From contig CATOCA020000001.1 in the NCBI GenBank assembly GCA_951406725.2, forward strand, positions 3,720,001 to 3,784,000: 64,000 nt of DNA, read 5' to 3'. The notes beneath the pieces were generated by a model that saw only the letters and a list, made by a program, of their open reading frames with translations, made no database searches and had not been told where the DNA came from. This document shows positions 18,793 through 62,489 of this stretch, in pieces. Position 1 is the stretch's first letter; each line of letters starts with the position of its first letter. Both the position numbers and the translations under genes were made by a program. Source of the stretch: Octopus vulgaris. Taxonomy: Eukaryota.

Positions 18793-18850
18793 TTTTATAG
18801 CATAAAATATCATCAAAGACGATTCTTGGAGGCTCTTTTTCGATTTTCAC

Positions 18851-20371: not shown

Positions 20372-20617
20372 CTTAAAGAGATTAATTGTTTTGTTTCAAT
20401 TATTTCTATATTCAAATATAGCTTAGGATTGGATCATCATAGGTAAAATAACCGCATTCAGTATGGTTGAGAACAGAATTAGTGAAGAAGGCTAAAACTA
20501 CAAGCGGGTGACTAAAAGTTAGTGTTAAGAACATATTCGTCCAGTACCGTGGCTTGCCCTCTTTAGCATGTAAGAAATCCACATGGTGGTCTTCCCTCCG
20601 TGTATAAATTTTTATAT

Positions 20618-20661
<44 letters not shown>

Positions 20662-21304: not shown

Positions 21305-21363
<59 letters not shown>

Positions 21364-21758
21364 TTAACAATTAAGGATAACTTCTTAATAAGGAATCTTA
21401 ACAAGAAATTATCAGGTAGATAGCGTGAAAAACCTCATCAGAGAAAAAATTCGAAAATAATTTTTCCTTTGAACATATTAATTTATATTATATAGAGGGC
21501 ATTATTAACATAAATGCCTCACACTAAGAGGGACATAAGTCATTTCTACCAAAAATTTCACTAATCATACCCAATAAGTTATCCTTAATTGTTAAATTTA
21601 TTCCGAAAAAAACTTTTCCTATCCGAAATGCAGTTCGAAAAAGCCCGCCATTTACCGGATATATGATTTATAAACTTCTCCATGTGCTTCGTTAGAAAGA
21701 GCAGTTGGCTGTTCGACTTCGACAGCGCTGGTAGTTTATTTATGATGTGTTCAGAATC

Positions 21759-21826
21759 AGTTCTACCGATGAGCATGGACGCAAATTTTGATGCGGTGAG
21801 TGCGAAATCACAGGTGATATAGGACT
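21759..21826 (+). ncRNA. Type I hammerhead ribozyme, U4C core variant
   Basis: Stem I AGTTCTA/TAGGACT; CCGATGA; stem II GCAT/GTGC; GAAA; stem III TCAC-AG-GTGA; AUA site after 21819; lies inside inverted-repeat element ~21361-21955. Confidence 0.68.
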
Positions 21827-22047
21827 AAATTCATTTTTAAATGTCTTGCTTTGAAAAACTGCATTGGGTATGATTAGTGAAATTTTTGGTAGAAATGACT
21901 TATGTCCCTCTTAGTGTGAGGCATTTATGTGTAATAATGCCCTCTATATAATATATATATATATATATATTATAAATACGTTCGTATATGTAAGTATATC
22001 GTATGTTGTATATGTATATATTTGTATTTATTTGCTTTTCTGAGTAT

Positions 22048-22106
22048 ATTCCACTGATGAAGGCAGAGCATTTCTTATGCAGAGTCAGAAATCCGGGATC
22101 TGGAAT
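22048..22106 (+). ncRNA. Type I hammerhead ribozyme
   Basis: Stem I ATTCCA/TGGAAT; CTGATGA; stem II GGC..GTC with inner GCAT/ATGC; GAAA; TCC-G-GGA; AUC site after 22100. Confidence 0.72.
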
Positions 22107-22314
22107 TATCCAGAAATGTTTGCTATTCTATTTTGTCTCTTCGTCTTCTCTCCTGGTGCTATATGAACATTTAATGTGGTTTTACAGTCAAGATTTGACT
22201 GCTATTACCCTATATTATAATTGTAAATAATTGTTACCTTTGATGTTTTTTATTCCCATGCTGGCCACCTGATAAAATCGATATTTAAATATTGATCTTA
22301 TCCTTCTGTGTGTG

Positions 22315-22346
<32 letters not shown>

Positions 22347-22350
<4 letters not shown>

Positions 22351-25300: not shown

Positions 25301-26222
25301 CTATTGAGGAGAGTAATTAGTTTCTCACTAAAAGCCAACGCCATGCTGACGAGGTTCTTCTGGATCGCTTCCTGCCAAAAGGAGGTGAAATCCTGCTCTT
25401 TGAGTTTGCCGTTCGAGGGGAGACTTGTCTCCTGCAGCCCAGCAATATCTATGTTGAGCCTCTTTAGTTCACGGTCAATGATGGCCGTTTTCCTTGTGTC
25501 TTCAACCCTGAGTAGATCATCAGATATTCCAGGGCACATGGTCCTGACATTCCAACTTGCCAACCGCACAACTGGTGTTTTCTTGACTTTTAGTTGTTTG
25601 CCTGGTGCAGAGGTTGCAGGCCGCTTTTCAAGTCATACTTTTAGCTTCAAGCACCCAATGAAGCAGGCGACCTGTGGCGGGTCAGCACCTTATTAACTGG
25701 GGGCTGCCCAGCTTGAGGTGGGCAGTAGCTAACCAATAGGACACGGAGGTCCCTCCCACCGTCAGAGGTAACCCGTAGCGCCCATATTTTACGCCAATCT
25801 GAATAGACTTATCACTCGTGACTGTTACCTCCCGTGTTGTTTCTGCAGCTTTTAACAGCAGCACTGAAGTGTCCTCTCCAGTTTTGCGCAGGCCTGGGCT
25901 ATAGATAAGAAAGTCCTGGGTAGCCCAATCGTCAGGTTTCCTCTCTCGACCTTGCTGATGTAGTCCAAAGGAGTGCAGTGCATTACGTTTGGCACCAGCT
26001 TGGTTGCAGGAGCTGCCGGAAGAGTGTCGAGTCGAACACTAGACCGCCTTCGGGGCTCCACTCCGGATTTCTTTGAAGGTTGTTTCCGTTCCGTAACCCT
26101 GGATAGGGGCCCATACCGGGTACTGTCAGCCGGAGCCAGCTGAGCCCGGAACTCGTGTCAGGCAGGGTCGTCACTCCCTGAAGTAGTGAAGAAGTTCGCT
26201 ACCCACTACCTTTTCAAGTAAT
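22347..26222 (-). mobile_element. Near full-length RTE-clade LINE (5' UTR, APE, RT) with several frameshifts and stops
   Basis: MRLASWNVRT..IAGLQET, GDFNARVG, LCITNTFF, QLDLII, DCDTDH, NYRGISLL, PESQCGFR, GVKQGCVLAP, LFADDAAL, FTYLGS, C-terminal CxxC..H; inserted in (TA)n. Confidence 0.93.
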
Positions 26223-26522
26223 GTTAAATTATTATTAGATTATATATATATATATATATATAGGTATGTATGTGTATGTATATATGCATATATATATATA
26301 TATACACAGTTCTCTCTTTATCTTTATATGGGTTTGTTTGTCCTTTGTATAATAAAACATTGATAAAACACTTAAGCATTTCGTCGAAGGTACGAATTAG
26401 TATATTGTGGGTCACAAGTAAAACACTGTTGATTATGGTGACGTCTAATACATGCGATAAAATCGAATGTTTGGAACAAAACCAAATAAATTTGAATAAA
26501 TGTGTTAGAAGCTTTTGCTTAC

Positions 26523-26575
26523 CCAGGATATTCAACTCGGAATTTTCCAGTCACGGTTAAAAACTCATGCTCCAT
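26523..26575 (-). CDS. SEA-like module copy B, exon 2: MEHEFLTVTGKFRVEYPG
   Basis: cttttgcag acceptor, gtaagc donor, 53 nt, phase 0 to 2; paralog of 37272-37324. Confidence 0.7.
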
Positions 26576-26918
26576 CTGCAAAAGCCAGATGTGTATATAT
26601 ATATATATATGCATACATTAAATTCAAGAAACAAAGTTTGATTTAAAAGCTTTGAGAAGTATAAAAAGATACAGATAAGGAAATAATTTTACATATGTAT
26701 GTATTTATGTGTTTAAGCTGATCAGGCTAACAAAATCGATATCACTATCTACGAAACGTATTGAGCTCACTCACTATTTAAATTGACGTTTTGCATTTCT
26801 TGTATAAAATATGCATGTGTGTGTGTGTGTGTGTGTGTGAGTGTATGCATGTGTGCGCGTGTTCAGCGCGCGCGCGTGTGTGTGTGTTCGGAGAAAGAGA
26901 GGGCAGATATCTACTCAC

Positions 26919-27001
26919 GGCTCTTGATATGTTCTCAGCAGGTTTTTTATATTCGTTGAAAGATTTTAAAATCAAACGAAATGCGAAGGATTTGGTCCAG
27001 C
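26919..27001 (-). CDS. SEA-like module copy B, exon 1: GWTKSFAFRLILKSFNEYKKPAENISRA
   Basis: ccatag acceptor, gtgagt donor, 83 nt, phase 1 to 0; paralog of 38360-38442. Confidence 0.72.
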
Positions 27002-29345: not shown

Positions 29346-29355
29346 CTACCATATA

Positions 29356-29434
<79 letters not shown>

Positions 29435-31943: not shown

Positions 31944-32086
31944 CATCATCAATGCCTTTGCTCTGTTCTGCATTGTAACATTGAGACATGTCTGCTTCTT
32001 GCCAGATACCAGTAAACGGTGAACACTTTTGTGATGACAGGTTTTGACTTGATGCCATTTCTGGATGCCCCATCGTTCTGGAAGAA
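31944..32086 (-). CDS. HRM domain exon 2: CSSRTMGHPEMASSQNLSSQKCSPFTGIWQEADMSQCYNAEQSKGIDD
   Basis: tttttttcag acceptor, gtgagc donor, 143 nt, phase 2 to 1; G.W...D.S.C HRM signature. Confidence 0.88.
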
Positions 32087-33447
32087 CTGAAAAAATAAAT
32101 GTTAAATATTGTCAGTTGAGTTTATTCATTCTGAGGAGAATTTCATCAATCTCAGAGGAATATAAGAAACCTTCGAACTGGTCGTGATTCGAACTCATAA
32201 TTTAGTGAAAGAAGGATAAATGGTGTCTTGCATTTGGGGGAGAAATCTATTATTTACTCCTGACCCCTATCCTCAAAACTAATGTCAAATATTTTCTAAC
32301 TAGAGTTCAGATATAAAAACAATATTCCTGCATCTGTTTTTATTTACAATAATTTCTTGTTTTTATGATTATTCAATACAAGATTAGTTGGAACGGTGTA
32401 GGTGATGCAGAATTAAGGAGCCAAGTTGTTAGTTCAAGTTGAATGGGGGAATTAGTTGCTAATATTTCGCCACCATAGACATCAGTAGCAACAGCGGCAG
32501 CAATGGATTTATGTATATTTTCCTACATATGCACAGATTTGAGTGATTCCACCAGTTGGTCTTGTCTTAAAACTAATAAAGCTCAGCCTCTGGGAGGAAC
32601 AATTTAGATGCTTAACCTGTGGAATGACGTGGTAGAAATGAGAGAAGAGAGACCGTGTTACATAGTCTGTGATGAGTGAAATCCCAGGATGACCATCATG
32701 TACTAGCAAGATATATAGCTCTACAGTAATCATAAAATTGAATAAATAGTATTAGCCTGAATCCAACAGAATCACTGATAGATTATATTGGCTGTATCTA
32801 GGTATGTACTTTCTTTGCTACAATTATTTTGTGAAATTCTGGAACTTACAAGAATCTTTAAATCTTTGAATAATGCTGAATTCAAATTTTGGTAGCTATT
32901 TTGGGCGGGGGTAGTTCGATTACATAGACCCCAGTGGTACTTATTTTATCGATCCCGTAAGGGTAAAAGACAAAGTCGACCCTGGTGGCATTTGATCTCA
33001 GAATGTAAAGTCAGAAGAAATGCTGCTAAGCATTTTGTCCGGCATGGAAACGATTCCGCTAGGTCAGCACCATAAAGCCTTGTCTAATATTGGTTTCAAA
33101 TTTTGGCACAAGGCCAGCAATTTCAGGGAAGGGATAAGTCACTTACATCAACCCCAGTGCTCAATTGGTATTTATTTCATCGACCCGAAACATAAAAACG
33201 AATGAAATGAAAGCTTTGTATAATATTGGCGACAAAGCAAACCTAGATAGTTAGGACAAGGCTAAATTATATCAAATAATGTATACAATGTAAAAATGCT
33301 GGGACAAGAGATTGCAACCGATGGACGTTTAATTCTATCTTGTTAATCTATAAAGCTGTTATCTGCTCTACCAAGTAACATTCTCTCACAATAGGATGGC
33401 GCTGAAAGCTTCAAACTTTGAGTAGAAATAAATCAATACAAACGAAC

Positions 33448-33562
33448 CAATGCCTGGTGGCTACATTTCCATGACATGGGATCTCCGCAGTAGTTCCTAT
33501 TTTTGTCATTGGCCAAGAGAAAGCTCGATTGTTAGTTGATGTTGTGCTTTCATCACAAACCA
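33448..33562 (-). CDS. HRM domain exon 1: MVCDESTTSTNNRAFSWPMTKIGTTAEIPCHGNVATRH(C)
   Basis: cttctttttcag acceptor, gttcgt donor, 115 nt, phase 1 to 2; C..WP.T..G....PC...ATR.C hormone-receptor motif of adhesion/secretin GPCRs. Confidence 0.9.
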
Positions 33563-34993: not shown

Positions 34994-35148
34994 TTTCATC
35001 AATGAATTTCATGTGGCTTTTCTTAACTCCTAAGTTAAGAAATTCCTGGGATTTGTTCAAAGTTTCGGAGATATTGTGCCGCAGTTGACTTTCAGTCATT
35101 TCGCTAAATACTGTACAGTAAATAGCAAATATTTTATTTCTGTTTGAG
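34994..35148 (-). CDS. SEA-like module copy A, exon 3: SNRNKIFAIYCTVFSEMTESQLRHNISETLNKSQEFLNLGVKKSHMKFIDE
   Basis: ttttatttcag acceptor, gtaagt donor, 155 nt, phase 2 to 1. Confidence 0.82.
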
Positions 35149-35230
35149 CTGAAATAAAAAATAAATACATACATGTATGTCGGTATGTATGTATGTATGT
35201 AGCTAGCTAGCTAGCTAGAAATATACATAC

Positions 35231-35287
<57 letters not shown>

Positions 35288-35802
35288 TCGTTTAAAAGCT
35301 GCCCTGTTAATCCTTGGGTCCAACAATGACACCATGCATTGAGTACATATTAAATTTCATGAAACATGAATATTTCTCAAGCAATGAACAATTTTCATCA
35401 AAGCAATGATATAATTTGTCGACTCGGAACTTATTGCAAAGCTTCATGATAAACAACAGTACCACCACCATCGCCACCATATCTGCAATACACACGCCAT
35501 CCAGACTTCTGACGCCATCACCATCAATACTTTTCATCACTTTCCCTCCACCACCATCACCACTGTCTTTCACATCGCTTTCTATCACTATATTCAAACA
35601 TAGCTCAGGATTGGATCATCATAGCTAAAATAACCGCATTCAGTATGGTTGAGAACAGAATTAGTGAAGAAGGCTCGAACTACAAGCGGGTGACTAAAAG
35701 TTGGTCTTAAGAATATATTCGTCCACTAAGAAATCCACATGAAGGCCTTCACTCCCTGCATAAATCTTTGAATACACTTTATATATGTATTTATACATAT
35801 AC

Positions 35803-36190
35803 AGGAGTGGCTGTGTGGTAAGTAGCTTGCTAACCAACCACATGGTTCCGGGTTCAGTCGCACTGCGTGGCATCTTGGGCTAGTGTCTTCTGCTATAGCT
35901 CCGGGCCGACCAATGCCTTGTGAGTGGATTTGTTAGACGGAAACTGAAAGAAGCCTGTCGTATATATGTATATATATGTGTGTGTGTGTATGTGTGTGTG
36001 TTTGTGTGTCTGTGTTTGTCTCCCAAGCATTGCTGGTGTGTTTACTCCCCGTCACTTAGCGGTTCGGCAAAAGAGACCGATAGAATAAGTACTGGGCTTA
36101 CAAAGAATAAGTCCCGGGGTCGATTTGCTCGATTAAAGGTGGTGCTCCAGCATGGCCGCAGTCAAATGACTGAAACAAGTAAAAGAGAGA
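35803..36190 (+). mobile_element. Full-length SINE copy
   Basis: ggagtggctgtgtggtaagtagcttg..ggttccgggttcagtc..catggccgcagtcaaatgactgaaacaagtaaaaga; absent from the paralogous intron near 20620. Confidence 0.85.
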
Positions 36191-36204
36191 AAAAAGTGAG
36201 AGAG

Positions 36205-36261
<57 letters not shown>

Positions 36262-36986
36262 CCTGGTTGGTTTTAAAATGTGTGTTAGCTACCTTCAATA
36301 TTTTATAATCTTCACATTGCCATTTTGTGAAATCAATCCCTAATTCCTATGGCATTCTCAATGATACTGAGAGGCGTGAGTTAGCCTCCACCAGCCGTAA
36401 TGGAGTGAGCATTGCTGATGAGTATTAACTTCCTATAAGAAATTACCATGCTAATCTAATCCATCTGGCTTACCGTGGGGAATGTTCTCCCCACTGTCAA
36501 TGCAAACAGACCATATGTCTTTTTGTGGCTAAGGAGTCTATGACTAATATTTCTAATAATGCTGGTGCTCACTGCACTCTTTTCACACTTAGTGACTGTG
36601 AATTATTTCCTTGTTGGTTTCAAATTGCCGATAGCCACCACAATTTATATATATACACACCCATATATGTGTGTGTATATATATGTGTGTATATATATAT
36701 GTGTGATGTATATGTATGATATATATATATATATATATATACAGCAATTTAATAAATAAAACATATGCATACATACATACATATATGTACATACCTACAT
36801 CTATACGTATATATACATATATATATGAGTACAGGACACCACAAAAAAGCGTAGAACACAACGAGAAACGAAAACATAAATCAAACAAGGAAACGGACTC
36901 TTTTCAACAACGAAAAACAGAGTACAAGACAAACAATACAAGGAAAATTCCCTTCTTCAGCTGGCCTGTTTCGACTTAATATATAT

Positions 36987-37058
<72 letters not shown>

Positions 37059-37271
37059 TTCTCTCTGTATCTTTATATGGGTTTGTTAGTCCTTTGTATA
37101 ATAAAACATGGATAAAACACTTAAACATTTCATTGAATGTATGAATTAGTATATTCTGGGTCACAAGTACAACACTGTTGATTATTGTGACGTATAATAC
37201 ATGCGATAAAATCGAATGTTTGGAACAAAAGCAAATAAATTTGAATAAATGTGTTAGAAGCATTTGCTTAC

Positions 37272-37324
37272 CCACAGTCTTCAACTCTAAATGTTCCCGT
37301 CACGGTTGAAAGGTCATGCTCAAT
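37272..37324 (-). CDS. SEA-like module copy A, exon 2: IEHDLSTVTGTFRVEDCG
   Basis: ctttttcag acceptor, gtaagc donor, 53 nt, phase 0 to 2. Confidence 0.82.
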
Positions 37325-37346
37325 CTGAAAAAGCCGGATGTATATA

Positions 37347-37377
<31 letters not shown>

Positions 37378-37909
37378 CATTAAATTCAAGAAACAAAGCT
37401 TGATTTAAAAGCGTTGAGATGTATTGAAAAATAAAGAAATAATTTTATTCTGAAACGCAGGATAATGCTAATGATATAACGTGAACCGCATGAAATATCC
37501 ATAATTTGCAGATAAATCTGTCGTCAGCCAGCTATGTGACTACACCTCACACCCCTGTGATTACGCTTCAAGTGCTTTACCATTAAGCTAAACTGCGCGA
37601 ACGACAAATACTTCTGCAAAGTTAGGCTATATACATCTAGCTTTATAAGACGCGTAATCTGGCCGCCGACAGAGTTTTCGGCAACAGGTGAATACTTTAT
37701 CCTGTTCATGCTATACTATTAGCATTATCCTGCGTTTGAGAATATAATTATGTATAAATATATTAGCTTGACACTCGGTAAAGTGGGGGAAATGAGAGGG
37801 TTTTTAATGTTCCGAGCATATCTCTTTTTCAGAAAGGAAAACGAAAATGTTGAGAAGAAAAATATTACCAAAAGGAAGTGTGTGATTACATATGTTCTTA
37901 TGTGTGTGT

Positions 37910-37956
<47 letters not shown>

Positions 37957-38359
37957 TGTGTCTGTGTCTGTGTGTGTCTGTGTGTAAACACAAGATTAGT
38001 GAATATTTGAGTAGGATTTTATTTACTGTCAGAATCGGAAATTATATCACGGAATATATAAAGACAAAATAGTGGATAGAACAGTCTTTTTATTGACCAG
38101 CAAAAATTCAGTAAGTTAAAAAAGAAAGTTTTATGTAATAGTTTACTATCAGTAAATGGAGTTGATTGTCTGAATTTCATGAAACCTCACTATTTATTTG
38201 ACGTTTCACATTTCTTCTATAAAATATGCATGTGTGTGTGTGTGTGTGTGCGTGAGAGTGTGTATGTGTATGCATGTGTGCGCATGTTCAGTGCATATGT
38301 GTGCGCGCACGCGCGTCTGTGTACGGAGAAAGAGAGAGAGAGGGCAGATATCTACTCAC

Positions 38360-38442
38360 GGCTCTTGATATGTTCTCAGCGGGGATTTTATATTCGTTGA
38401 ACTTTTTAAAAATCAAACGAAATACGAGGGATTTGGTCCAGC
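38360..38442 (-). CDS. SEA-like module copy A, exon 1: GWTKSLVFRLIFKKFNEYKIPAENISRA
   Basis: ccatag acceptor, gtgagt donor, 83 nt, phase 1 to 0. Confidence 0.82.
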
Positions 38443-39381: not shown

Positions 39382-39565
39382 CAATGAAATCATTCTTGTT
39401 ACATAAGTGTCCGACGCAACAACCAGTACAAGACGTGCCATTCGTCCGTTTATTGCATGTAAGGGTATTGTTTCTCATAGCTTCAACACATTTTCTGTAT
39501 GTGCTGCAGGACCTTTCAGTCTTCAGTTTAGCACCGTTCATTGATATTGCGAATCGGCATACAGG
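39382..39565 (-). CDS. Ly6/uPAR (three-finger) domain exon 2: PVCRFAISMNGAKLKTERSCSTYRKCVEAMRNNTLTCNKRTNGTSCTGCCVGHLCNKNDFI
   Basis: tattattacag acceptor, gtaagt donor, 184 nt, phase 0 to 1; CCxxxLCN LU signature. Confidence 0.9.
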
Positions 39566-41532: not shown

Positions 41533-41618
41533 CTCTGTTCCTGGACAGCTTGTCACTTCATTGCATATGATTCCTGAACATGTTTGACACTGTAAATTCC
41601 GTTGAAATAACGAGTAAT
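41533..41618 (-). CDS. Ly6/uPAR domain exon 1: NYSLFQRNLQCQTCSGIICNEVTSCPGTE
   Basis: ttgtattctgtag acceptor, gtaaac donor, 86 nt, phase 1 to 0; LxCxxC LU start. Confidence 0.87.
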
Positions 41619-46449: not shown

Positions 46450-46607
46450 TTTGACATTGCGAATAATCCAGTATAGGTATTCGTTTCCCTGAGCCTTCAA
46501 GACACATGCCACGAACATCCACAATTCTGTTATAGACTTCTTTAATATATTTAACGAAGGCTGGCAAGTGACATCCACACTTCATAAGGTTATTGTTTTG
46601 GAGGTTA
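46450..46607 (-). CDS. Last LRR strand + LRR C-terminal cap: NLQNNNLMKCGCHLPAFVKYIKEVYNRIVDVRGMCLEGSGKRIPILDYSQCQ
   Basis: ctttattattacag acceptor, gtaagt donor, 158 nt, phase 2 to 1; LxxNxL..CxCxL..C..C LRRCT pattern. Confidence 0.87.
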
Positions 46608-48777: not shown

Positions 48778-51060
48778 TGGGGGTATGAATGTAAGCCATT
48801 CACACCACTCTGTACTACATACTGCAGTAGATTTATTAGAGAGGAGAAATGAGAAAATGATAATTGAAAATAACAGATACCAAATAAAATTAGGTAGGAT
48901 GTGGTTAGAGAATCTTTAAATGATATTCTAGATATAGTTTTGAATTATAAGACAAACATGATATATAAAATGTATTGGGCAAACAGATTATATACAGCTG
49001 TCAGAAGAGAAAGAGATGACATACAATATATAAATGGCATACTAGATTTAGAGGATATAGTAGATATAGATGATATGCTATGATAGATTTTGATGATATG
49101 TTTGAAGAGATGACATACAAGATATGGATAAATCTACTAAATGTAGCTAACCTGCAATATAGAGATTACCAGCTACAAGATATAAGTGACATACGAGCTA
49201 TTGTTGTCAAACGGTATTGTCATATAAGTGCTGTGGCGAAAGTTGATAGGTATTGCGAAGCTGCGAAATATTGCTGAGTAAAATACCAGTTATATTTGAC
49301 ATGAGAGATTTAGCTTTATAAGCATTCTAAATATAAGTGGAAATTATAGCAGATATATCTGAAATTGTAGGTATTGGAAATATTTTCTCCCTCGGCACTT
49401 CCTTTATTGAATATGATTTTCAGAAGAGAATATTCTGAACCTTTTAGGAATTTTGCTACATCGTAATGCAATTCTATCATGTTCTGATAAATACAATTTT
49501 GAAATAGATCTGCTTGTTACCTCCCAACCTCTAATACTGCGCGAACGTTGTTAGTTTTACTACTATTTATCTCCCTTAAAATGTTCTCCATTCCAAGCAG
49601 TGTGGTTAAGCTTTAATAGGGATAGGATTGTGTTAAATTTCCCTCTCTTTCTTTACCTCTCCACACACACGTGTATATATACATGTGTGTGTGTGTGTGT
49701 GTGTAAATATATATATATATATATATATTAACACAGAAGAATGGAGATATCATACATATTGAACCATCCCGTTTCTGTCAGATTGGCAAATCACAAAATC
49801 TTGCGATATAGTAATACTGCGTATTAATCGACCCAACAGTTACAGGGTGTTCTGTTTTCATGTTCTGAGTTCAAATTTTCGAGGACGATTTTGCCTTTCA
49901 CCTTCTTGGGGTCGATGAATTAAGTACCAGCCGAGCACTAGGGTGGATGTAATCGACAAGCCCCCAGCCACAAAATTGCAGGCATTGTGCTTATCGTAGA
50001 AAGAATATTATACCAAATGGTTTCGTGGTAGAAATACAGAGGCAAATACAGCAGTCATCAGAAATATTTGAATGGAATTTTTGTGGATCTTATTCCTTCT
50101 GATAACTCCGTTGTCATAAGGATATAATAAGTAATAACAATATATATATATGTGTGTGTATGCTTATATATGCACATACGCATATACACACAGGAATCTT
50201 TATATATGTGTGCATGTAGGTTGGTATGTAGGCCACTCTCTCGACTCCAGTGAATTATGTGTATTTATAAACATGGGGTAAACTAGATCAAATCAACCTT
50301 CTGATATTTGAACATAAACTTTTCGATAATAAAACACAGTGCTCGGAAATCATGTTGATCCACTGAAATTTAAATCAAATCATTGTTGTTTATTACCAAC
50401 AACATTTAACGAGGAATTGAGAATTTTATGACCTCATTTTATTATTTTCATTTTCTTATAACCAAAAAGAACTTGTTTGCTTACATTATAGCTATGCTGG
50501 GAAGGAATAAGAAAGCGCCATCTTCATATTTTTCTATTGGGTTGCTGAACAAATATCTGAAAAAGAGACAAATATTACACACTTTAAAATAAGTAAAAAT
50601 AAATAAATATGTTTTTCCTGTTCAGTACTAAATTGCGTTTCAGTCAACACTAACAGGGTAAATGCTGATATTACACACTACAATTGTTTATTTCTCTTTA
50701 TAGTTCTCTGGGAAGTGTTGTTTGAACAAGAATAGGTTCCTTCAATCTAACTTAATTATCCTAAAAGAAAACCTGATAACAAAACAGCAAAAGATGGAAG
50801 GGAATAAAATACAAAAACTAACAAAATAACAAGGAGACTTTCTTATGTGCACAATATGGGTTTTAGTCAACATTCTCATCTATGGTAGAAATATCATCCT
50901 CCATATAGGCAAGGTTCTGTGGCAGGAAAATTACTTCTCACATCCATGGATTCTTTAGTCCAACTGTGTGGCACCTTGGACAAATAACATTAACTATAAC
51001 CTTGGGTCAACTAAGCGTTGTGAGTGAATTTGCTGCAGGAAACTGTGTGGATTCCCTTCG

Positions 51061-53160: not shown

Positions 53161-55137
53161 TAGAAGAAGAAGAAGAAGAAGAAGAAGAAGAAGAAGAAGA
53201 AGAAGAAGAAGAAGAAGAAGAAGAAGAAGAAGAAGAAGAAGAAGAAGAAGAAGAAGAAGAAAAGAAGAAGAAGAAGAAGAAGAAGAAGAAGAAGAAGAAG
53301 AAGAAGAAGAAGACGAAAAGAAGAAGAAGATGAAGAAGAAGAACAAGAAGAGGAAGTAGAGGAGGAGAAAAAGAAGAAGAAGTAGAAGAAGAAGAAGTAG
53401 AAGAAGAAGAAGAAGAAGGAGACGAGGAAGAAGAAGTAGAAGAAGAAGAACAAGAAAGAGAAGAAGAAAAGAAGAAGAAGAAGAAGAAGAAGAAGAAGAT
53501 GAAGAAGAAATAGAAGAAGAAGAACAAGAAGGAAACAAGAAGAGGAAGTAGAGGAGGAGAAAAAGAAGGAGAAGAAGAAGAAGTAGAAGAAGAAGAAGAA
53601 GAAGAAGAAGAAGAAGGAGAAGAAGAAGAAGAAGAAGAAGGAGAAGAAGAAAATGAAGAAGAAGAAGAAGAAGAAGAAGAAGAAAAAAGAAGAAGAAGGA
53701 GGAGTAGAAGAGAAACAAGAAGAAGAAGAAGAAGAAGTAGAGGAAGAAGAAGCATGAAAAAGAAGAAAGAAATGAAGAAGGAGGTGGAAAAGGAGAAGAA
53801 GGAAGAGAATAAAAAGAAAGAAGACAAGAAGAAGAAGAAGGAGGAGGAGGAGGAGGAGAAGTAGATGAAGAAGTAGAAAGTAGAATTAAGTAAAGAAAAA
53901 GCAGAAGAAAAAGGATGAGGATGAGGGGGAGTGGGAGAGTAAGAATTACAAGAAGAATAAAGAGGAAAAGAAGGAGAAGAAGAAGAAGAAGAAGAAGAAG
54001 AAGAAGAAGAAGAAGAAGAGAAAGAAGAAGAAGAAGAAGAAGGAGTAGTAGAAGAAGAAGAAGAAGAAGAAGAAGAAGAAGAAGAATAGGAAGAAAAAGA
54101 CGTCGAAGAAAAAGAAGAAAAGAAGAAGGAGAAGGAGGAAGAGGAGACAAAAGGAGGAGGAGTATGAAGGGGAAGTAGAAGTAAAAGAAGTAGAAGAAGG
54201 AGGATGTGGAGGAGGAGAAGGAGAATAACAAAAAGAAGATAAGAAGAAGAAAGAGGAGAGAGAGAGAAGTAGATGAGGAAGTACAAAGTAGAAGAAGAAG
54301 AAGAAGAAGAAAAATAAAGATGAAAGAGAAGAATAAGAAAAAGAAGGAGGAAGACGGGGAGGAGAAGTAGAAGGAGAAGAAGAAGAGGAAGAAAAAGAAG
54401 GAGAAGAGAAATGAGAAGTACAAGAAGAAGAGGAAGAAAAATAGGTAGGGGATGAGAAAGAAGAAGAAGGAAAAAAGATGAATAAGAAGAAGAAGAAGAG
54501 GAGGAAAAAGGAGGAGGAGGGAGAGGAGGAGGTTGAAGGAGCAGAAGAAGTAGGAGAAGAAGAAAAAGAAAGATGATGAGGAGGAGGAGGTGGAAAAGAA
54601 GAAGAAGAAGAAGAAGGAGTAGAAGTAGAAAAATAAAAAGAAGGAGGTAGACAAGGAGAAGTAGAAGAAGAAGGAGGAGGAGCAGAAGAAGAGGGAGAAA
54701 AAGTAGATGAAGAAGAAGAAGAAGAAAAAAGGAGGGAGATGGGGAGGGGTAGGGTGAGAATTACAAGAAGAAAAAGGAGGAGGAGGGGAAGAGAATTACA
54801 ATAAGAAAATGAAGAATAAGACGGAGAAGGAGAAGAGAAAAGATTAGAAGTAGAAAAGAAGGAGGGGTAGGGGGAGGAGGGAACAAGAAAGATAGAAGAA
54901 AAGAAGAAGCAGAAGAAGAAGAAGAAGAAGAAGAAGGAGAGGGAGAAGATAAAAAGAAGAAGAAGAAGAAGGAGAGGAAGAAGATAAAGAAGAAGAGGAA
55001 AAAGAAGGACGAGGAGGAGGAGCATGAGGAATGGCGGAGGAAGAAGAAGAAGAAGAAGAAGAAGAAGAAGAAGAAGAAGAAGAAGAAGAAGAAGAAGAAG
55101 GACGAGGAGGAGGAGCAGGAGGAATGGTGGAGAAGAA

Positions 55138-55169
<32 letters not shown>

Positions 55170-55520
55170 TAAAGAAGAAGAGGAAAAAGAAGGACGAGGA
55201 GGAGGAGCATGAGGAATGGCGGAGGAAGAAGAAGAAGAAGAAGAAGGACGAGGAGGAGGAGCAGGAGGAATGGTGGAGGAAGAAGAAAAAGGAGAAGAAG
55301 AGGAAGAAGAAGAAAAAAAAGGACGAGGAGGAGGAGCAGGAGGAATGGCGGAAGAAGGAGAAGAAGAAGAAGAAGAAGAAGAAGAAGAAGAAGAAGAAGA
55401 AGAAAAAGAATGACGAGGAGGAGGAGCAGAAGGAATGGTGGAGGAAGAAGAAGAAGAAGAAGAAGACGAAGAAGAAGAAAAGGAAGAAGAAGAAGAAATG
55501 AAGTGGAAATGAAGAGGAGA
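53161..55520. repeat. Degenerate (GAA/GGA)n polypurine tract with internal higher-order repeats
   Basis: About 2.3 kb, almost all purine on the plus strand; gacgaggaggaggagca..ggaatgg motif repeated about 7 times at 55005-55445. Confidence 0.95.
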
Positions 55521-55821
55521 AGAATATGAAGAGATAGATCGATAAATCTTGGGCGAGAAAGATGGCTGAAAAATCAGGGAATATACGGAATCAGAAATCA
55601 ACATATTCAAATGCACTCATACACATTCTTATATTCATAGTATCAACGACGGAATGCGGTATGCACACTCACATCACATATTCCCACTCACCCTTGTGGA
55701 AATATGGTGAGAGAGATTATTTAGTTCATATCGCTTCATTGTCACAAGAATATTAGAAAACACACGCTGACAAGAAATATATCAGCAGTTTAATTGTATC
55801 AGGCCAAATATCCCAGCTTAC

Positions 55822-55908
55822 AAGTACAGTAAGTATTTCAGGTTTACAGATAGAATGTATGTGACTATATTATTCGAATATATATTTTCCGCTTCCACTT
55901 CAGTTGCT
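55822..55908 (-). CDS. Atypical LRR exon, cassette 1: ATEVEAENIYSNNIVTYILSVNLKYLLY
   Basis: taatag acceptor, gtaagc donor, 87 nt, phase 2 to 2; IxxNxI..LxxLxxL. Confidence 0.55.
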
Positions 55909-56453
55909 CTATTACATAAATAACGTGAAGTGAATGACAAAATTCGAAGTTGAATGATAATATCGAAACACGAAGGAGAATATTGAAATAAGAAATGGAG
56001 GAGGATGCAAAATATAAAATAAAGGAATAATATAGTCACATTTCACACAGAACTACACTTATATATGAACATACACATATACTTCAGCTAAAAATATTTG
56101 ATGCAAACATGTAAACTCACAAACGTTACCATTTCTAATACAAATTCATATCAAAATCATTGAAATTTGGGGAACAAAAATGAGTTATTTAGATGCGAAG
56201 TGAATCAAAGCAACTACAATAAAGGAACATTATATTTTCCCTATTATTTCACTTTCTCCCTCAAATTCTCTCTCTTTCTTTCACATTGTCTCGCTCTCTC
56301 ATATTCTCCTTCTATATTCCTAAATCGTGTTCGATCCTCAAATTTGAATTAATTTTGTTTGGTTCAGTCTGAAATTTTATACATTTGTGAGCTTATATAT
56401 CAGCATCAATTATTACTTTCGGAAAATAGTATCAAGAAACTGAACGAACTTAC

Positions 56454-56525
56454 AATTCTTTTAAATTCGAAAGCCCCGTGAATGCACCTTCTTTGATGGT
56501 TGAAATGTTGTTCTCGTTCAGAGCT
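56454..56525 (-). CDS. Canonical 24-aa LRR exon, cassette 1: ALNENNISTIKEGAFTGLSNLKEL
   Basis: ctttactgctatag acceptor, gtaagt donor, 72 nt, phase 2 to 2. Confidence 0.92.
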
Positions 56526-58567
56526 CTATAGCAGTAAAGAAAGAGTAAAATAGATTAGATGGAAAATATTTGTGATGCGACATCAAACACTGTGACTTCA
56601 GAATGAAAGGAAGAAAAGGCAGAAAGATTACGAAGAAGAAAAGGAAGAAGAAGAAGGAGGAGGAGGAGGAGGAGGCGAAGAAGAAGAAAAGGAAGAAGAA
56701 GAATTAGTAGAAGAAGAAAGGAGAAGAAGGAGAATAAAAAGAAGAGGAAGAAGGTATAGGAGGAAAAAGGAGGAGGAGGATGGTAAAAGGGAAGAAGTAG
56801 AAGCGGAAAAAGTAAAAGAAGAAGGAGGAGGAGGAGGCTGACAAGTAGATGAAGAAGTAGAAAGAAGAAGAAGAAGAAGAAGAAGAAGAAGAAAAAGAAA
56901 AAGAAGAAGAAGAAAATGAAGGAGGATGAGGAGGGGGAGAGGAAGAAGAAGAATTGCAAGAAGAAGAAAGAAGAGAAGAACAAGAAGAAGACGTAGAAGA
57001 AGTAGAAGCAGGAAAAAGAAAAAGAAGTTGAAGAAGGAGGAAGAGGAGTAGGAGGAGGAGAAGGAGAAGAAGAAGTAGAAAGAAGGAGAGGAAGAAAAAT
57101 AAGAAGAAGAAGAAGAAGAAGAAGAAGGAAGAGGAGGAAAAAGGAGGAGGAGGAGAATGATGGGGAAGAATAAGTAGGAGAAGATGAAAAAGAAGAAGAT
57201 GAAGGAGGAGGAGGATAAGAATAACAAAAAGAAGAATATAAGAAGAAGAAAGAGGAGTAGGAGGAGAAGTAAATGTTGAAGTAGAAAGTAGTAGAAGAAG
57301 AAGAAGGAGAAGGAGAAGAAGTATAAGAAGAAAAAAAGAGTAGAAAAATGAGAAGAAGAAAAGAAAAAGGAGGAGGAGGAAAAGAAGAAGAAGAAGAAGA
57401 CGCAGAAGAAGAAGAAAAAGAAGCGGGAGAGGAGGGGGAGGAGGAGAATTACAAGAAAAAAAGGAGGAGGAGGGGCGGAGAGGATTGGGAAGAAAGAAAG
57501 AAGAGGAAAAAAGAAGTAGAAGAAGGAAGAGGAAAAGGAGGAGGAAGCAATGAAGGGGAAAAGTAGGAGTAGAAGAAAAAGAAGAAGAATAAGAAAAAGA
57601 AGGAGGAGGAGTTGAAAAAGTTGAAAGTAGAAGAGGATGTAGGAGAAGAAGAAGAAGAAATAAGTAGAAGCGAGAGAAGATGAAAAAGAATAAGGAGAAG
57701 GAGAAGAAAAAGAGGAAGAATAAGAAGACGAAGAAGAAGAAGAAAAACGAGCAGGAGAGGAGGGGAGGAGGAGAATTACAAGAAGAAAAATGAGGAGGAG
57801 GGGCGGAGTGGAGGGGAAGAGAATTTAAAGAAGAAAATGAAGAATAAGAAGAAGAAGAAAGAAGAAGAAGAAGGAGTAGGAGGAGTAGAAGTAGAAGAAA
57901 AAGAAAAGAAGAGAAGAAGAAGAAGAAGGAAAAGAAGAAAAAGAAGAGAAGAAAAAGAAGGAGGAGAAGGAGCAGCAGGAGGAGAGGAAGAAGAAGAAGT
58001 AGATGAAGTAGAAGTGGAAGAAAGAAAAGAAGAAGAAGAAGGACAAAAAGAAGAAGAATTGAAGAAAATGAAGGAGGACGAGGAGGAACAGGAGGAGAGG
58101 CAGAGGAAGAAGAAGAAGAAGAAAGAAGAAGAAGAAGAAGAAGAAGAAGAAGAAGAAGAAGAAGAAGAAGAAGAAGAAGAAGAAGAAGAAGACGACGAAG
58201 AAGAAGACACATTGAAAATCATGGTGTTTAAGATGAAACTGAAAATATTTTCGAAATATCAGGAAATAATTCAAGGAGAGAACGAAAAATTTTGGGCGAG
58301 AAGACATGGCTGAAAAATCAGGGAATATACGGAATCAGAAATCAACATATTCAAATGCACTCATACGCATTCTTATATTCATAGTATCAACGACGGAATG
58401 CGGTATGCACACTCACATCACACATATTCCCACTCACCCTTGGGGAAATATGGTGAGAGAGATTATTTATTTCATATTGCTTCATTGTCACAAGAATATT
58501 AGAAAACACACGCTTACAAGAAATATATCAGCAGTTTAATTGTATCAGGCCAAATATTCCACCTTAC

Positions 58568-58654
58568 AAGTACAGTAAGTATTTCAGGTTTACAGATAGA
58601 ATGTATGTGACTATATTTTTTGAATATATATTTTCCGTTTCCACTTCAGTTGCT
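58568..58654 (-). CDS. Atypical LRR exon, cassette 2: ATEVETENIYSKNIVTYILSVNLKYLLY
   Basis: 87 nt, phase 2 to 2, ag/gtaagg. Confidence 0.55.
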
Positions 58655-59199
58655 CTATTACATAAATAACGTGAAGTGAATGACAAAATTCGAAGTTGAA
58701 TGATAATATCGAAACACGAAGGAGAATATTGAAATAAGAAATGGAGGAGGATGCAAAATATAAAATAAAGGAATAATATAGTCACATTTCACACAGAACT
58801 ACACTTATATATGAACATACACATATACTTCAGCTAAAAATATTTGATGCAAACATGTAAACTCACAAACGTTACCATTTCTAATACAAATTCATATCAA
58901 AATCATTGAAATTTGGGGAACAAAAATGAGTTATTGAGATGCGAATTGAAACAAAGCATCTACAATAAAGGAACATTATATTTTTCCTATTATTTCATTT
59001 TCTCCCTCAAATTCTCTCTCTTTCTTTCACATTGTCTCGCTCTCTCATATTCTCTTTGTATCTTCCTAAATCTTGTTCATTCTACATATTCGAATTGATT
59101 TTGTTTGGTTCAGTCTGAAATTTTATACATTTGTGAGCTTATATATCAGCATCAATTATTACTTTCGGAAAATAGTATCAAGAAACTGAACGAACTTAC

Positions 59200-59271
59200 A
59201 AGTAGTTTAAATTTGAAAGCCCCGTGAATGCTCCTTCTTTGATGGTTGAAATGTTGTTCTCGTTCAGAGTT
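59200..59271 (-). CDS. Canonical LRR exon, cassette 2: TLNENNISTIKEGAFTGLSNLNYL
   Basis: 72 nt, phase 2 to 2, ag/gtaagt. Confidence 0.92.
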
Positions 59272-60471
59272 CTATAGCAGTAAAGAAAGAGTAAAATAGA
59301 TTATATGGAAAATATTTGTGATACAACATCAAACACTGTGACTTGAGAATGAAAGGAAGAAAAAGAAGAAAGATAACGAATAAGAAAAGGAAGAAGAAGA
59401 AGGAAGAGGAGGAGGCGAAGAAGAATTAGAAGAAGAAAGGAGAAGAGGTAGAAGAAAAAGAAGAGCAAGAAGGAATAGGAGGAAAAAGGAGGAGGAGGCT
59501 GATAAAAGGGAAGAAGATGTAGGAGAAAAAGTAAAAGAAGGAGAAGGAGGGGGAGGAGGAGGAGGAAGAGAATAACAAGAAGAAGATAAGAATAAGAAAG
59601 ACGAGGAAGAAGTGGAGGAGAAGTAGATGAAGAAGTAGAAAGAAGAAAGGAGAAGAAGAAGAAGGAGAAGAAGAAGGAGAAGAAGAAAGAAGAAGAAGAA
59701 GAAGAAGACGAAAAAGAAGGAGGATGAGGAGGGGGAGGGGAAGAAGAAGAATTGCAAGAAGAAGGAAGGGAAGAACAAGAAGAAGAAGACGTAGAAGAAT
59801 TTGAAGCAGGAAAAAGAAGAAGATGAAGAAGAAGAAGGAGGAGGAGGAGGAGGAGGAGGAGAAGGAGAAAGAGAATAACAAAAACAGAAGTTAAGAAGGA
59901 GAAGGAGGAGGAGGAGAAGATGTAGAAGAAGAAGAAGAAGAAGAAGGAAGTGGAGGAAAAAGGAGGAGGAGTAGGAGTATGAAGGGGGAGAATAAGTAGG
60001 AGAAGATGAAAAAGAAGAAGATGAAGGAGGAGGAGGAGGAGGAGGAGAATAACAAAAAGAAGAATATAAGAAGAAGAAAGAGGGGTAGGAGGAGAAGTAG
60101 ATAAAGAAGTAGAAAGAAGAAGTAGAATATAAAAGAAAAAAAAGAAATAGAAGAATGAGAAGAAGAAAAGAAAAAGAAGGAGGAGGAGGAAAAGAAGAAG
60201 AAGAATTAGAAGAAGAAGCAGAAGAAGAAGAAAAGGAGCAGGAATGGAAGGGAGGAGGAGAATTAGAAGAAGAAGAGGAGGAGGAGGGGCGGAGAGGATT
60301 GGGTAGAAAAAAAGAAGATGAAAAAAAGAAGTAGAAGGAAGAGGAAAAAGGAGGAGGAAGATGATGATAGGGAAAAAGTAGGTGTAGAAGAAAAAGAATA
60401 AGAATAAGAATAAGAAGGAGGAGGAGGAGGAGGAGGAAGGGTAGATGAAGAAGTTGAAAGTAGAAGAAGAA

Positions 60472-60506
<35 letters not shown>

Positions 60507-61363
60507 AGAAGAAGAAGAAGAAGAAGAAGAAGACGGAGAAGAAAAAGAAGAAAAAAGAAAAAGGAGCAGGAGAGGAGGGGGAGGAAGAGAATTACAAGAA
60601 GAAATAGGAGGAGGAGGGGCGGAGTGGAGGGGGAAGAGAATTTAAAGAAGAAAATGAAGAATAATAATAAGAAAAAAATTAGAAGAGGAAGGAGGAGGAG
60701 GACCAGGAGGAGGAGGAGGACCAGGAGGAGGAGGTGGAGGAGGTGAAATAGAAGAAGAAGAAAAGAAGAGAAGAAGAAGAAGAAGAAGTAGATAAAGTAG
60801 AAGTGGAAGAAAGAAAAGAAGAAGAAGAAGGAGGAGGAGGCAGAAGACGAAATGACAAAAAGATGATGAAAAAGGCAGAGAAGGAGAAGTAGAATAAGAA
60901 AAAGAAAAAAAAGAGAAGAAGAAGAGAAGAAGAAGAAGAAGAAGAAGAAGAAGAAGAAGAAGAAGAAGAAGAAGAAGAAGAAGAAGAAGAAGACGAAGAA
61001 GAAGACACATTGAAAATCATGGTGTTTAAGATGAAACTGAAAATATTTTCGAAATATCAGGAAATAATTCAAGGATAGAATGAAAAATTTTGGGCGAAAA
61101 GACATGGCAGAAAAATCAGGGAATATACGGAAACAGAAATCAACATATTCAAATGCACTCATACACATTCTTATATTCATAGTATCAACGACGGAATGCG
61201 CTATGCACACTCACATCACATATTCCCACTCACCCTTGTGGAAATATGGTGAGAGAGATTATTTATTTCATATCGCTTCATTGTCACAAGAATATTAGAA
61301 AACACACGCTTACAAGAAATATATCAGCAGTTTAATTGTATCAGGCCAAATATTCCAGCTTAC

Positions 61364-61450
61364 AAGTACAGTAAGTATTTCAGGTTTACAGATAGAATGT
61401 ATGTGACTATATTATTCGAATATATATTTTCCGCTTCCACTTCAGTTGCT
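61364..61450 (-). CDS. Atypical LRR exon, cassette 3: ATEVEAENIYSNNIVTYILSVNLKYLLY
   Basis: 87 nt, phase 2 to 2, ag/gtaagc. Confidence 0.55.
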
Positions 61451-61995
61451 CTATTACAAAAATAACGTGAAGTGAATGATAAAATTCGAAATTGTTTGAT
61501 AATATCGAAACACGAAGGAGAATATTGAAATAAGAAATGGAGGAGGATGTAAAATATAAAATAAAGGAATGATATAGTCACATTTCACACAGAACTACAC
61601 TTATATATGAACATACACATATACTTCAGCTAAAAATATTTGATGCAAACATGTAAACTCACAAAGGTTACCATTTCTATTACAAATTCATATCAAAATC
61701 ATTGAAATTTGGGGAACAAACCTGAGTTATTGAGATGCGAATTGAAACAAAGCAACTACAATAAAGGAACATTATATTCTTCCTATTATTTCACTTTCTC
61801 TCTCAAATTCTCTCTCTTTCTTTCACATTGCCTCGCTCTCTCCTATTCTCTTTGTATCTTCCTAAATCTTGTTCATTCTACAAATTCGAATTGATTTTGT
61901 TTGGTTCAGTCTGAAATTTTATACATTTGTGAGCTTATATATCAGCATCAATTATTACTTTCGGATAATAGTATCAAGAAACTGAACGAACTTAC

Positions 61996-62067
61996 AATTC
62001 TTTTAAATTTGAAAGCCCTGTGAATGCACCTTCTTTGATGGTTGCAATGTTGTTCCAATGCAGATAT
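61996..62067 (-). CDS. Canonical LRR exon, cassette 3: YLHWNNIATIKEGAFTGLSNLKEL
   Basis: 72 nt, phase 2 to 2, ag/gtaagt. Confidence 0.92.
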
Positions 62068-62489
62068 CTATAGCAGTAAAGAAAGAGTAAAATAGATTAT
62101 TTGGAAAATATTTGTGATACGATATCAAACACTTTGACTTCAGAATGAAAGGAAGAAAAAGAAGAAAGATAACGAAGAAGAAAAAGAAGAAGAAAGATAA
62201 CGAAGAAGAAGAAGAAGAAGAAGAAGAAGAAGAAGAAGAAAAAGAAGAAGAAGAAGTAGAAGAAGAAGAAGCAGAAGGAGAAGAAGAAGAAGCAGGAGGA
62301 GAAGAATATCTTAATGTGGCAGCCGTTTCATGTTTATTTCCTACTTGACTTGCACAACCTCGAGTGTCCGCTTCGCCTCTCTATGTACCAACACACACAT
62401 CCACACACATACACGCACATGTATGCACATATAAGCACATACACACATATACACTCAGAAATATATACACATATGTATATCTACCTCTG

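What the first reader, a model, noticed from the sequence alone, without database searches (positions are those of the whole stretch)
55540..62150. Tandem LRR exon cassettes whose differences concentrate on the ligand-facing residues
Seen: three near-identical ~2.75-kb units, each with a 72-nt LRR exon and a probable 87-nt exon, all phase 2-2. The 72-nt exons differ by clustered multi-base changes at the x positions of the LxxLxLxxN strand: (Y/T/A)L(H/N/N)(W/E/E)N and L(K/N/K)(E/Y/E)L. The framework and flanking introns look nearly unchanged by eye. Established: these positions form the concave binding surface of LRR solenoids, as in lamprey VLRs and plant LRR receptors, and symmetric exons can be added or skipped in frame. 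Inference: a receptor-diversification system working by cassette copy number, diversifying selection and possibly alternative splicing, in a putative cephalopod recognition protein.
Basis: partly seen in the sequence, partly recalled or inferred. Interest (0 to 1): 0.8.

Follow-up and report, generated by a model that had tools for sequence, protein, structure and literature searches.

The report
Octopus antibody-like shuffled LRR cassette family
Three near-identical small exons here belong to a pool of at least 150 interchangeable repeat modules spread over about 20 octopus genes, many predicted to be secreted; their differences pile up on the predicted binding face, which likely makes this an undescribed, inherited repertoire of variable recognition proteins, probably for defence.

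Summary
The three 72-nt phase-2 LRR exons are real (minus strand) and read as reported. The 87-nt 'exon' is not supported. The host gene derives from the octopus-specific LRR adhesion GPCRs but has lost GAIN and 7TM: signal peptide, LRRNT, 3 cassettes, last LRR, LRRCT, Ly6-like, SEA-like, HRM, SEA-like, stop. It is predicted to be secreted.

The genome holds at least 158 such cassettes in about 20 arrays. At least 14 genes appear 7TM-less (6 mapped); 2 mapped arrays sit on full receptors. Across 74 units, exon diversity is 0.153 against 0.040 in introns. Four concave-face codons carry 10-15 amino acids each (omega 3.8-5.3) on an invariant framework. Units under 1% apart in introns still differ at 4 of 5 x residues, and intron linkage decays within about 30 bp, pointing to short-patch exchange between genes.

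Contigs of three probable RNA runs cover only the exon and join cassette to cassette; 4 of 8 motifs at these joints are missing from this assembly. Best reading: a germline repertoire diversified by recombination and selection, likely immune. Ligand, tissue, skipping and any somatic step are untested.

The parts
61996..62067 (-). 72-nt LRR cassette exon 1 (YLHWN...LKE), phase 2-2
   Evidence: cover and exon-exon joints in probable RNA runs
59200..59271 (-). 72-nt LRR cassette exon 2 (TLNEN...LNY), phase 2-2
56454..56525 (-). 72-nt LRR cassette exon 3 (ALNEN...LKE), phase 2-2
61010..62145 (-). Unique part of unit 1 (about 1.1 kb; 93-97% identical to most of about 70 other full units)
58270..59355 (-). 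Unique part of unit 2
55540..56630 (-). Unique part of unit 3
59356..61005 (.). Degenerate GAA/GGA purine tract between cassettes 1 and 2 (possible recombination substrate; inferred)
56632..58207 (.). Degenerate GAA/GGA purine tract between cassettes 2 and 3
53162..55497 (.). Degenerate GAA/GGA purine tract after cassette 3
61364..61450 (-). 87-nt AG/GT-bounded segment (also 58568-58654 and 55822-55908): intronic, not supported as an exon
50485..50556 (-). Last LRR exon (YLFSNPIEKYED...); its x positions also vary between genes
46450..46607 (-). Connecting strand and LRRCT exon (the database model uses an acceptor 51 nt further upstream)
41533..41618 (-). Ly6/uPAR-like cysteine-rich domain, exon a
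   Evidence: label from cysteine pattern (recalled) and the NCBI name of homologue P0106; no Pfam hit
39382..39565 (-). Ly6/uPAR-like domain, exon b
34994..38442 (-). SEA-like domain, three exons (38360-38442, about 37272-37324, 34994-35148)
   Evidence: ferredoxin-like fold predicted for a paralogue; SEA label inferred
31944..33562 (-). HRM (hormone-receptor motif) domain, two exons (33448-33562, 31944-32086)
   Evidence: weak Pfam PF02793 in homologues
20289..27001 (-). Second partial SEA-like copy in place of GAIN-GPS-7TM (exons 26919-27001, 26523-26575, 20289-20371)
18851..18903 (-). Last coding exon (...TAETNF stop), homologous to the cytoplasmic tail exon of the full-length receptors

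Best explanation
The three exons are interchangeable LRR modules of a large octopus gene family, derived from LRR adhesion GPCRs, whose binding face is likely diversified in the germline by recombination and positive selection to give variable, in many cases predicted-secreted, recognition proteins that probably serve defence.

Shown: one LRR per symmetric exon; at least 158 cassettes in about 20 arrays; hypervariability at x3, x5, x7 and x8 of LxxLxLxxN on a fixed framework; cassettes spliced head to tail in probable RNA; this gene ends in frame without GAIN or 7TM, while sister genes carry the same head on a full receptor.

Inferred: (1) unequal crossing-over in the near-identical introns and GAA tracts changes cassette number and order; (2) short-patch gene conversion between genes and chromosomes homogenises introns and reassorts the variable codons; (3) selection for new ligand specificity keeps those codons diverse; (4) because the exon junction falls in mid-strand (LxxL|xLxxN), every new neighbour or skipped cassette rebuilds a strand from two half-modules (75 x 30 half-types seen); (5) secreted forms would act as soluble binders or decoys beside signalling 7TM forms.
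For: Diversity in 74 units: exon 0.153, introns 0.040, highest 72-nt intron window 0.092. Entropy 2.6-3.1 bits at exon codons 1, 3, 4, 23; codons 2, 5, 7, 21 invariant in 127 of 127; pN at x codons 0.49 against pS 0.16 at non-x codons. Own M1a/M2a fit on 61 distinct exons: omega 3.75 and 5.3 on two trees, LRT 65 and 119, P=1.0 at those four codons. Tree-free check: codon 1 takes 16 codons and 15 amino acids while its third base is T in 124 of 127; no Cys or Pro in 508 hypervariable codons. The 25 pairs under 1% intron divergence still differ at 43% of x-codon bases; intron linkage decays within about 30 bp (permutation p=0.0005); nearest intron neighbour is in the same array for only 10 of 66. 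The same sites vary in 18 O. sinensis type-A modules (only 2 identical to this genome's) and in type-B modules. Probable RNA: cover only on the exon; LRRNT-cassette, cassette-cassette and cassette-last-LRR joints; no back-joints in the DNA-like run. Architecture. An O. bimaculoides relative with a Death domain has 71% of its expression in skin.
Against: No ligand, tissue, induction or protein evidence for this subfamily. The family's published expression includes axial nerve cord and suckers, and its authors proposed a neural role (PMC6408891). Recombination and multi-base changes inflate site-model omega, and pS at the x codons is itself high (0.32). Codons 8 and 14, off the concave face, are moderately variable too. 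The runs are only guessed to be RNA and are contigs. The HRM-to-SEA-like splice that removes the 7TM was not read in RNA here; it rests on canonical in-frame splice sites and database models of two species. 11 of 138 cassettes are broken, several by homopolymer indels that may be assembly errors. Polishing could have homogenised introns, and some arrays could be uncollapsed haplotypes.
Confidence: 0.62

Rival explanations
1. The same diversified family is a cell-identity or self-recognition code (neural wiring, allorecognition), like protocadherins or Dscam1, rather than a defence system.
For: Group 3 adhesion GPCRs are expressed in axial nerve cord, suckers and skin, and were proposed to complement protocadherins (PMC6408891). 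The closest folds are Nogo receptor 2, Slit and LRRTM2. Skipping isoforms exist in annotation.
Against: At least 14 members appear to lack a membrane anchor. Fast turnover between close species (5 of 15 O. sinensis 5' motifs shared) fits an arms race better than a wiring code (inference). The fold matches are generic to all typical LRRs.
Confidence: 0.15
2. A somatic, VLR-like system: cassettes are copied or rearranged in individual cells, and the genomic arrays serve as donors.
For: 4 of 8 cassette 5' motifs at RNA joints are absent from the genome-wide cassette lists. Very short conversion patches. Inverted and broken cassettes exist.
Against: Every mapped gene is complete with in-frame cassette exons; no empty recipient gene was seen. 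No transition bias (kappa about 1; 8 transitions, 15 transversions), unlike deaminase mutagenesis. The RNA comes from other animals, so allelic variation explains the new motifs.
Confidence: 0.08
3. Chemosensory, prey, mucus or reproductive recognition (sucker, skin or gamete ligands) drives the diversification.
For: Sucker, skin, gill and ovary expression of the expanded groups (PMC6408891). Reproductive recognition proteins also evolve by concerted evolution plus positive selection (recalled).
Against: No direct data. Death-domain and tyrosine-motif tails on relatives resemble immune receptors more.
Confidence: 0.1
4. Neutral mutational or conversion hot spot, or an assembly/polishing artefact, with no adaptive meaning.
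For: 11 of 138 cassettes are broken; 100-N gaps lie beside some arrays; synonymous diversity in the exon also exceeds intron diversity.
Against: Variation spares the synonymous third base of codon 1 and the framework codons and avoids Cys and Pro. It recurs in O. sinensis models and in RNA-like contigs. An independent DNA-like run covers the whole unit with many segregating sites. The three window units differ by 3-4.5% in introns.
Confidence: 0.05

Closest known systems
Octopus-specific adhesion GPCR expansion, 'group 3' of Ritschard et al. 2019 (PMC6408891)
   Same: Homologous ectodomain (56% identity to full receptor P0025 over LRRCT-HRM). Relatives A0A0L8FLR8 and A0A0L8HDZ7 are listed in group 3. 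LRRs were noted there in 5 of 22 sequences, and branch-level positive selection was reported.
   Different: This gene has no GAIN, GPS or 7TM. In the passages I read the paper found no selected sites and does not describe cassette arrays, hypervariable LRR faces or soluble forms.
[quoted passage not shown]
   Same: One LRR per exon (72 nt in Ectocarpus; phase 2 in Tetrahymena), variable exon number, scrambling between genes, inverted or inactivated exons; diversifying selection in Ectocarpus.
   Different: Those are proteins of an alga (ROCO GTPases) and a ciliate. Here the host is an extracellular animal protein with secreted and 7TM forms, and the junction splits the binding strand.
Jawless-vertebrate variable lymphocyte receptors (VLRA/B/C; PMC3900441)
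   Same: LRRNT, 24-aa LRRs, connecting strand, LRRCT solenoid (Z 20.0, rmsd 2.9, 170 aligned to hagfish VLR 2o6q); variability on the concave face; secreted and membrane forms.
   Different: VLRs are assembled somatically from donor cassettes into an incomplete gene; here cassettes are spliced exons inside complete germline genes. No stalk or GPI signal; unrelated C-terminal domains.
Sea urchin Sp185/333 (SpTransformer) genes (PMC3091723)
   Same: Germline immune family with conserved flanks bounded by microsatellites, proposed to promote duplication and conversion.
   Different: Unrelated protein; whole genes, not single exons, are the duplicated unit.
Arthropod Dscam1
   Same: Tandem duplicated symmetric exons encoding binding surface; isoform diversity by splicing (recalled; search listings).
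   Different: Dscam exons are mutually exclusive in one gene; here annotated isoforms include variable numbers of cassettes and there are about 20 genes.

Membership tests
Adhesion GPCR (octopus group 3) | GAIN domain with GPS motif | tested here: not met
   No GAIN/GPS exon in the 144-kb block around the gene; no Pfam hit in P0009. Present in sister loci.
Adhesion GPCR (octopus group 3) | Class B 7TM domain | tested here: not met
   None between HRM and the stop exon; all exons join in frame to a stop at 18851.
Adhesion GPCR (octopus group 3) | Homologous ectodomain and tail, relatives placed in group 3 | tested here: met
   a derivative of the family, not a receptor
VLR | LRRNT-LRR(n)-CP-LRRCT solenoid | tested here: met
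   (generic to typical LRR proteins)
VLR | Variability concentrated on the concave beta-sheet | tested here: met
   strand positions from the model; side-chain direction from established LRR geometry
VLR | Incomplete germline gene with flanking donor cassettes | tested here: not met
   8 mapped loci have cassettes as in-frame exons inside complete genes
VLR | Somatic assembly by cytidine deaminases, clonal expression | not testable with these tools
   no matched DNA/RNA or single-cell data; no transition bias in germline variants
Exon-shuffled LRR repertoires (Ectocarpus ROCO, Tetrahymena) | One LRR per symmetric exon, variable number per gene | tested here: met
Exon-shuffled LRR repertoires (Ectocarpus ROCO, Tetrahymena) | Exons closer to exons of other genes than to their neighbours | tested here: met
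   nearest intron neighbour in the same array for 10 of 66
Exon-shuffled LRR repertoires (Ectocarpus ROCO, Tetrahymena) | ROCO GTPase or NB-ARC signalling domain | tested here: not met
   Pfam scans
Dscam1-type splicing | Mutually exclusive one-of-N exon choice | tested here: inconclusive
   annotated isoforms show variable inclusion; no long reads; docking-site pairing not examined

The most novel reading that the evidence does not exclude
Octopuses have an antibody-like system of their own: secreted and signalling LRR receptors built on an adhesion-GPCR scaffold, whose binding face is rewritten by cassette exchange and combinatorial splicing, with each cell or animal expressing its own set, possibly including somatic cassette conversion. 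It would be a protostome counterpart of lamprey VLRs.
Probability: 0.15. Interest if true: 0.95.

Novelty: new variant of a known kind. Interest (0 to 1): 0.72.

Why it matters
Cephalopods have no described variable recognition receptor: the passages I read of a 2026 review on immune diversification name FREPs for molluscs and only haematopoiesis for cephalopods. This family supplies a concrete candidate with defined variable codons, both soluble and signalling forms, and testable routes to diversity (germline exchange, splicing, somatic change). It also suggests that an adhesion-GPCR ectodomain can be turned into a secreted variable binder, and explains why whole-gene selection tests missed the selected sites. 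Seventy-two-nt phase-2 LRR exons as such are ordinary (recalled); the scale, the exchange between genes and the 7TM-less forms are what stand out.

Tried and rejected
87-nt exon: rejected. My first test of it used coordinates 16-18 nt off and is void for that segment.

Assembly triplication of one unit: rejected. A-to-I editing as the source of the four new RNA motifs: none differs from a genomic motif by A-to-G alone (inspection). Deaminase-type hypermutation: no transition bias.

Run search: no RNA holder listed on record; the runs laid are guesses. Contig depth was not used to rank expression. A mis-specified pattern found nothing.

Folding: the C-terminal half is low confidence in both models, so the Ly6-like and SEA-like labels are not confirmed structurally. 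The Atlas gave only a ferredoxin-like fold for the SEA-like part and nothing for the Ly6-like part.

Distribution: all named homologues of the non-LRR part are Octopus. One unnamed full receptor (P0108) and an E. scolopes member of group 3 show the parent family is wider.

Expression data: none found for this subfamily (supplements of PMC9712504 with one PDF unreadable, PMC13230822 text and supplement, locus-id search). The mucus proteome paper mentions LRR proteins that I could not tie to this family.

Ten paper searches found no description of these cassette arrays. Subscription journals and bioRxiv supplements are not covered and could hold one. Earlier scan notes held nothing for this genome or sequence.
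Full report
OBSERVATION. The region holds three units spaced 2746 and 2796 nt apart. Each has about 1.1 kb of unique sequence and a degenerate GAA/GGA tract of 1.6-2.3 kb. On the minus strand each carries a 72-nt exon with a canonical acceptor and GTAAGT donor, phase 2-2, encoding one 24-residue LRR. Among the three units 13 of 72 exon sites vary against 59 of 914 intron sites (p=0.0013). Pairwise intron divergence is 3.3-4.5% and exon divergence 8-17%. The 87-nt segment fails as an exon: stops in 8 of 68 full-length copies against 2 of 129 for the 72-nt exon, diversity 0.022, no RNA-like cover above intron level, and joints that pass over it.

HOST GENE. A search with an HRM-like exon found Octopus proteins. 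Model P0009 (550 aa, labelled O. vulgaris) matches the window's exons at about 100%. I checked splice sites and phases of the constant exons: signal peptide plus LRRNT (just beyond the window, G000:C31 about 3,785,570-3,785,780), three cassettes, a last LRR, LRRCT, a ten-cysteine Ly6/uPAR-like domain, a SEA-like domain, HRM, a second partial SEA-like copy, and a final exon ending TAETNF-stop. That last exon is homologous to the cytoplasmic tail of full-length relatives. No GAIN, GPS or 7TM lies in the 144-kb block, so the product is predicted to be secreted. O. sinensis models end the same way. Relatives with GPS and 7TM belong to the octopus-specific adhesion GPCR group 3 of PMC6408891 (I read part 2 of 6 of its text, further passages and supplement rows). 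The Ly6 and SEA labels are inferred, not Pfam hits.

FAMILY. Pattern searches give 80 + 56 type-A cassette starts (2 probably unrelated) and 24 of a second backbone, type B; these are lower bounds. In the stretches I fetched, 138 type-A cassettes were extracted and 127 are intact, giving 113 distinct peptides. They form 19 listed arrays with 2 to 23 cassettes. The stop exon occurs 18 times, 14 of them 11-20 kb downstream of a closely similar HRM exon with no listed 7TM exon between. Six such loci were mapped exon by exon; two other arrays (2 and 23 cassettes) sit on GAIN-GPS-7TM genes. Not all arrays were mapped to their ends, and some could be uncollapsed haplotypes.

WHERE THE VARIATION IS. 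In 74 near-full-length units (of 138; the rest are partial or diverged) diversity is 0.153 in the exon and 0.040 over 912 intron sites; the highest 72-nt intron window is 0.092. In the 66 intact ones, exon codons 1, 3, 4 and 23 (x5, x7, x8, x3 of LxxLxLxxN) have 2.6-3.1 bits, and x2 and x10 have 0.7-0.8. Framework codons 2, 5, 7 and 21 are invariant in all 127. Codons 8 and 14, off the face, reach 1.1-1.3 bits. The predicted model places these x residues in or next to the beta-strands of a standard LRR solenoid; that they point to the concave side is established LRR geometry, and VLR variability sits there too (PMC3900441, passages).

SELECTION. pN at the five x codons is 0.49, against pS 0.16 at non-x codons and 0.32 at the x codons themselves. 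My own M1a/M2a fit on 61 distinct exons gives omega 3.75 (exon tree) or 5.3 (unit tree), with posterior 1.0 at codons 1, 3, 4 and 23. Recombination inflates such tests. The tree-free evidence is better: codon 1 uses 16 codons for 15 amino acids while its third base is T in 124 of 127, and Cys and Pro never occur in 508 hypervariable codons where about 18 would be expected from base frequencies. The same positions vary in 18 O. sinensis type-A and 13 type-B modules; only 2 of the 18 equal a cassette here, and 5 of 15 5' motifs are shared.

EXCHANGE. Divergence at x codons is almost independent of intron divergence: the 25 pairs under 1% apart in introns differ at 43% of x-codon bases and 4.0 of 5 residues, like distant pairs. 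Intron linkage falls from r2 0.26 below 10 bp to 0.05 at 10-30 bp (p=0.0005, 40 sites). The nearest intron neighbour is in the same array for 10 of 66 units (5.2 by chance), and often on another contig. This is the signature expected of short-patch conversion among paralogues, although assembly polishing could add to it. Purine tracts make up roughly 40-50% of the spacer in the young arrays. A role as recombination substrate is an inference by analogy with Sp185/333 (PMC3091723, abstract).

TRANSCRIPTION AND SPLICING. Contigs of three probable RNA runs from three studies cover 3, 30 and 3 of 30 bins. Summed depth is about 110, 2275 and 175 on the exon, against 0, about 3-9 and 0 in the intron. 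They show back-joints from exon end to exon start, and loose ends that read as LRRNT-to-cassette, type A to type B and cassette-to-last-LRR junctions. The DNA-like run covers all 30 bins, shows many segregating sites and no back-joint. Of 8 distinct 5' motifs at joints, 4 are absent from this assembly's lists; other animals therefore carry other cassettes, or the assembly lacks a haplotype. Skipping rests on annotation: 13 O. sinensis isoforms of one gene differ by whole modules, two of them suspicious chimeras, and two O. vulgaris models of one locus have 9 and 3 cassettes. Because the junction lies inside the strand (LxxL|xLxxN), any new neighbour creates a new strand; 75 5' and 30 3' half-types occur among 127 cassettes.

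FUNCTION. Not shown. Defence is my best guess from the arms-race pattern, the soluble forms, a Death domain on an O. bimaculoides relative with 71% of its expression in skin, and tandem tyrosine-motif exons downstream of one 7TM member (that gene model is unreliable at its end). Against this, group 3 is also expressed in nerve cord and suckers, and I found no expression data for this subfamily.

COMPARISON AND NOVELTY. It works like the exon-shuffled LRR repertoires of Ectocarpus (PMC3341825, passages) and Tetrahymena (PMC6564038, passages), and its product resembles a VLR. It is not a VLR (no incomplete germline gene) and this gene is not itself a GPCR. Ten searches of the held library found no description of the arrays. 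I rate it a new variant of a known kind, interest 0.72.

Noticed in passing
G000:C31:2845891-2870000 (L111-L113), minus strand: Tandemly repeated small exons with tyrosine motifs (SYLEL, ISYVNV, TYVNA) downstream of the 7TM of a cassette-bearing receptor; may form an ITIM/Grb2-type signalling tail. The database model P0095 runs on into LINE sequence.
   Followed up: partly
G000:C5:141880930-141885168: Inverted duplicate of four cassettes beside the plus-strand array, next to a 100-N gap; resembles the opposite-strand LRR exons of Ectocarpus, or is an assembly error.
   Followed up: no
G000:C31:4203470-4232333: 12-cassette array with no last-LRR exon found in the fetched stretch, near a gap; model P0046 joins it to ankyrin repeats.
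   Followed up: no
G000:C31 arrays (e.g. 4985966, 5032141, 5043996, 5347444): Several cassettes are broken by 1-nt indels in short homopolymers; one appears intact in an RNA-like contig, so some are likely assembly errors.
   Followed up: partly
G000:C30:19608851-19618161 and O. sinensis P0026/P0079: An older receptor-type locus keeps nearly the same x residues in both species, unlike the scrambled young arrays.
   Followed up: partly
P0011, P0026, P0102 (database models): The Ly6-like exon pair is itself tandemly duplicated in some members.
   Followed up: no
window 490-3445 (+), 7738-9714 (-), 9827-11284 (-), 22419-25696 (-): LINE-type reverse transcriptase/endonuclease remnants. The one at 22.4-25.7 kb lies in an intron of the gene and is shared with the paralogue at C31:5.30 Mb.
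   Followed up: no
window 4081-4798 and 28996-30022: Inverted repeats with 238-nt (99%) and 292-nt (94%) arms; probably MITE-like elements, and possible A-to-I editing substrates if transcribed.
   Followed up: no
window 18454-18799: 28-bp minisatellite, 12 copies, just after the stop codon (probable 3' UTR).
   Followed up: no
LRRNT, last LRR and LRRCT exons across loci: The constant flanking exons also vary mainly at their strand x positions.
   Followed up: partly
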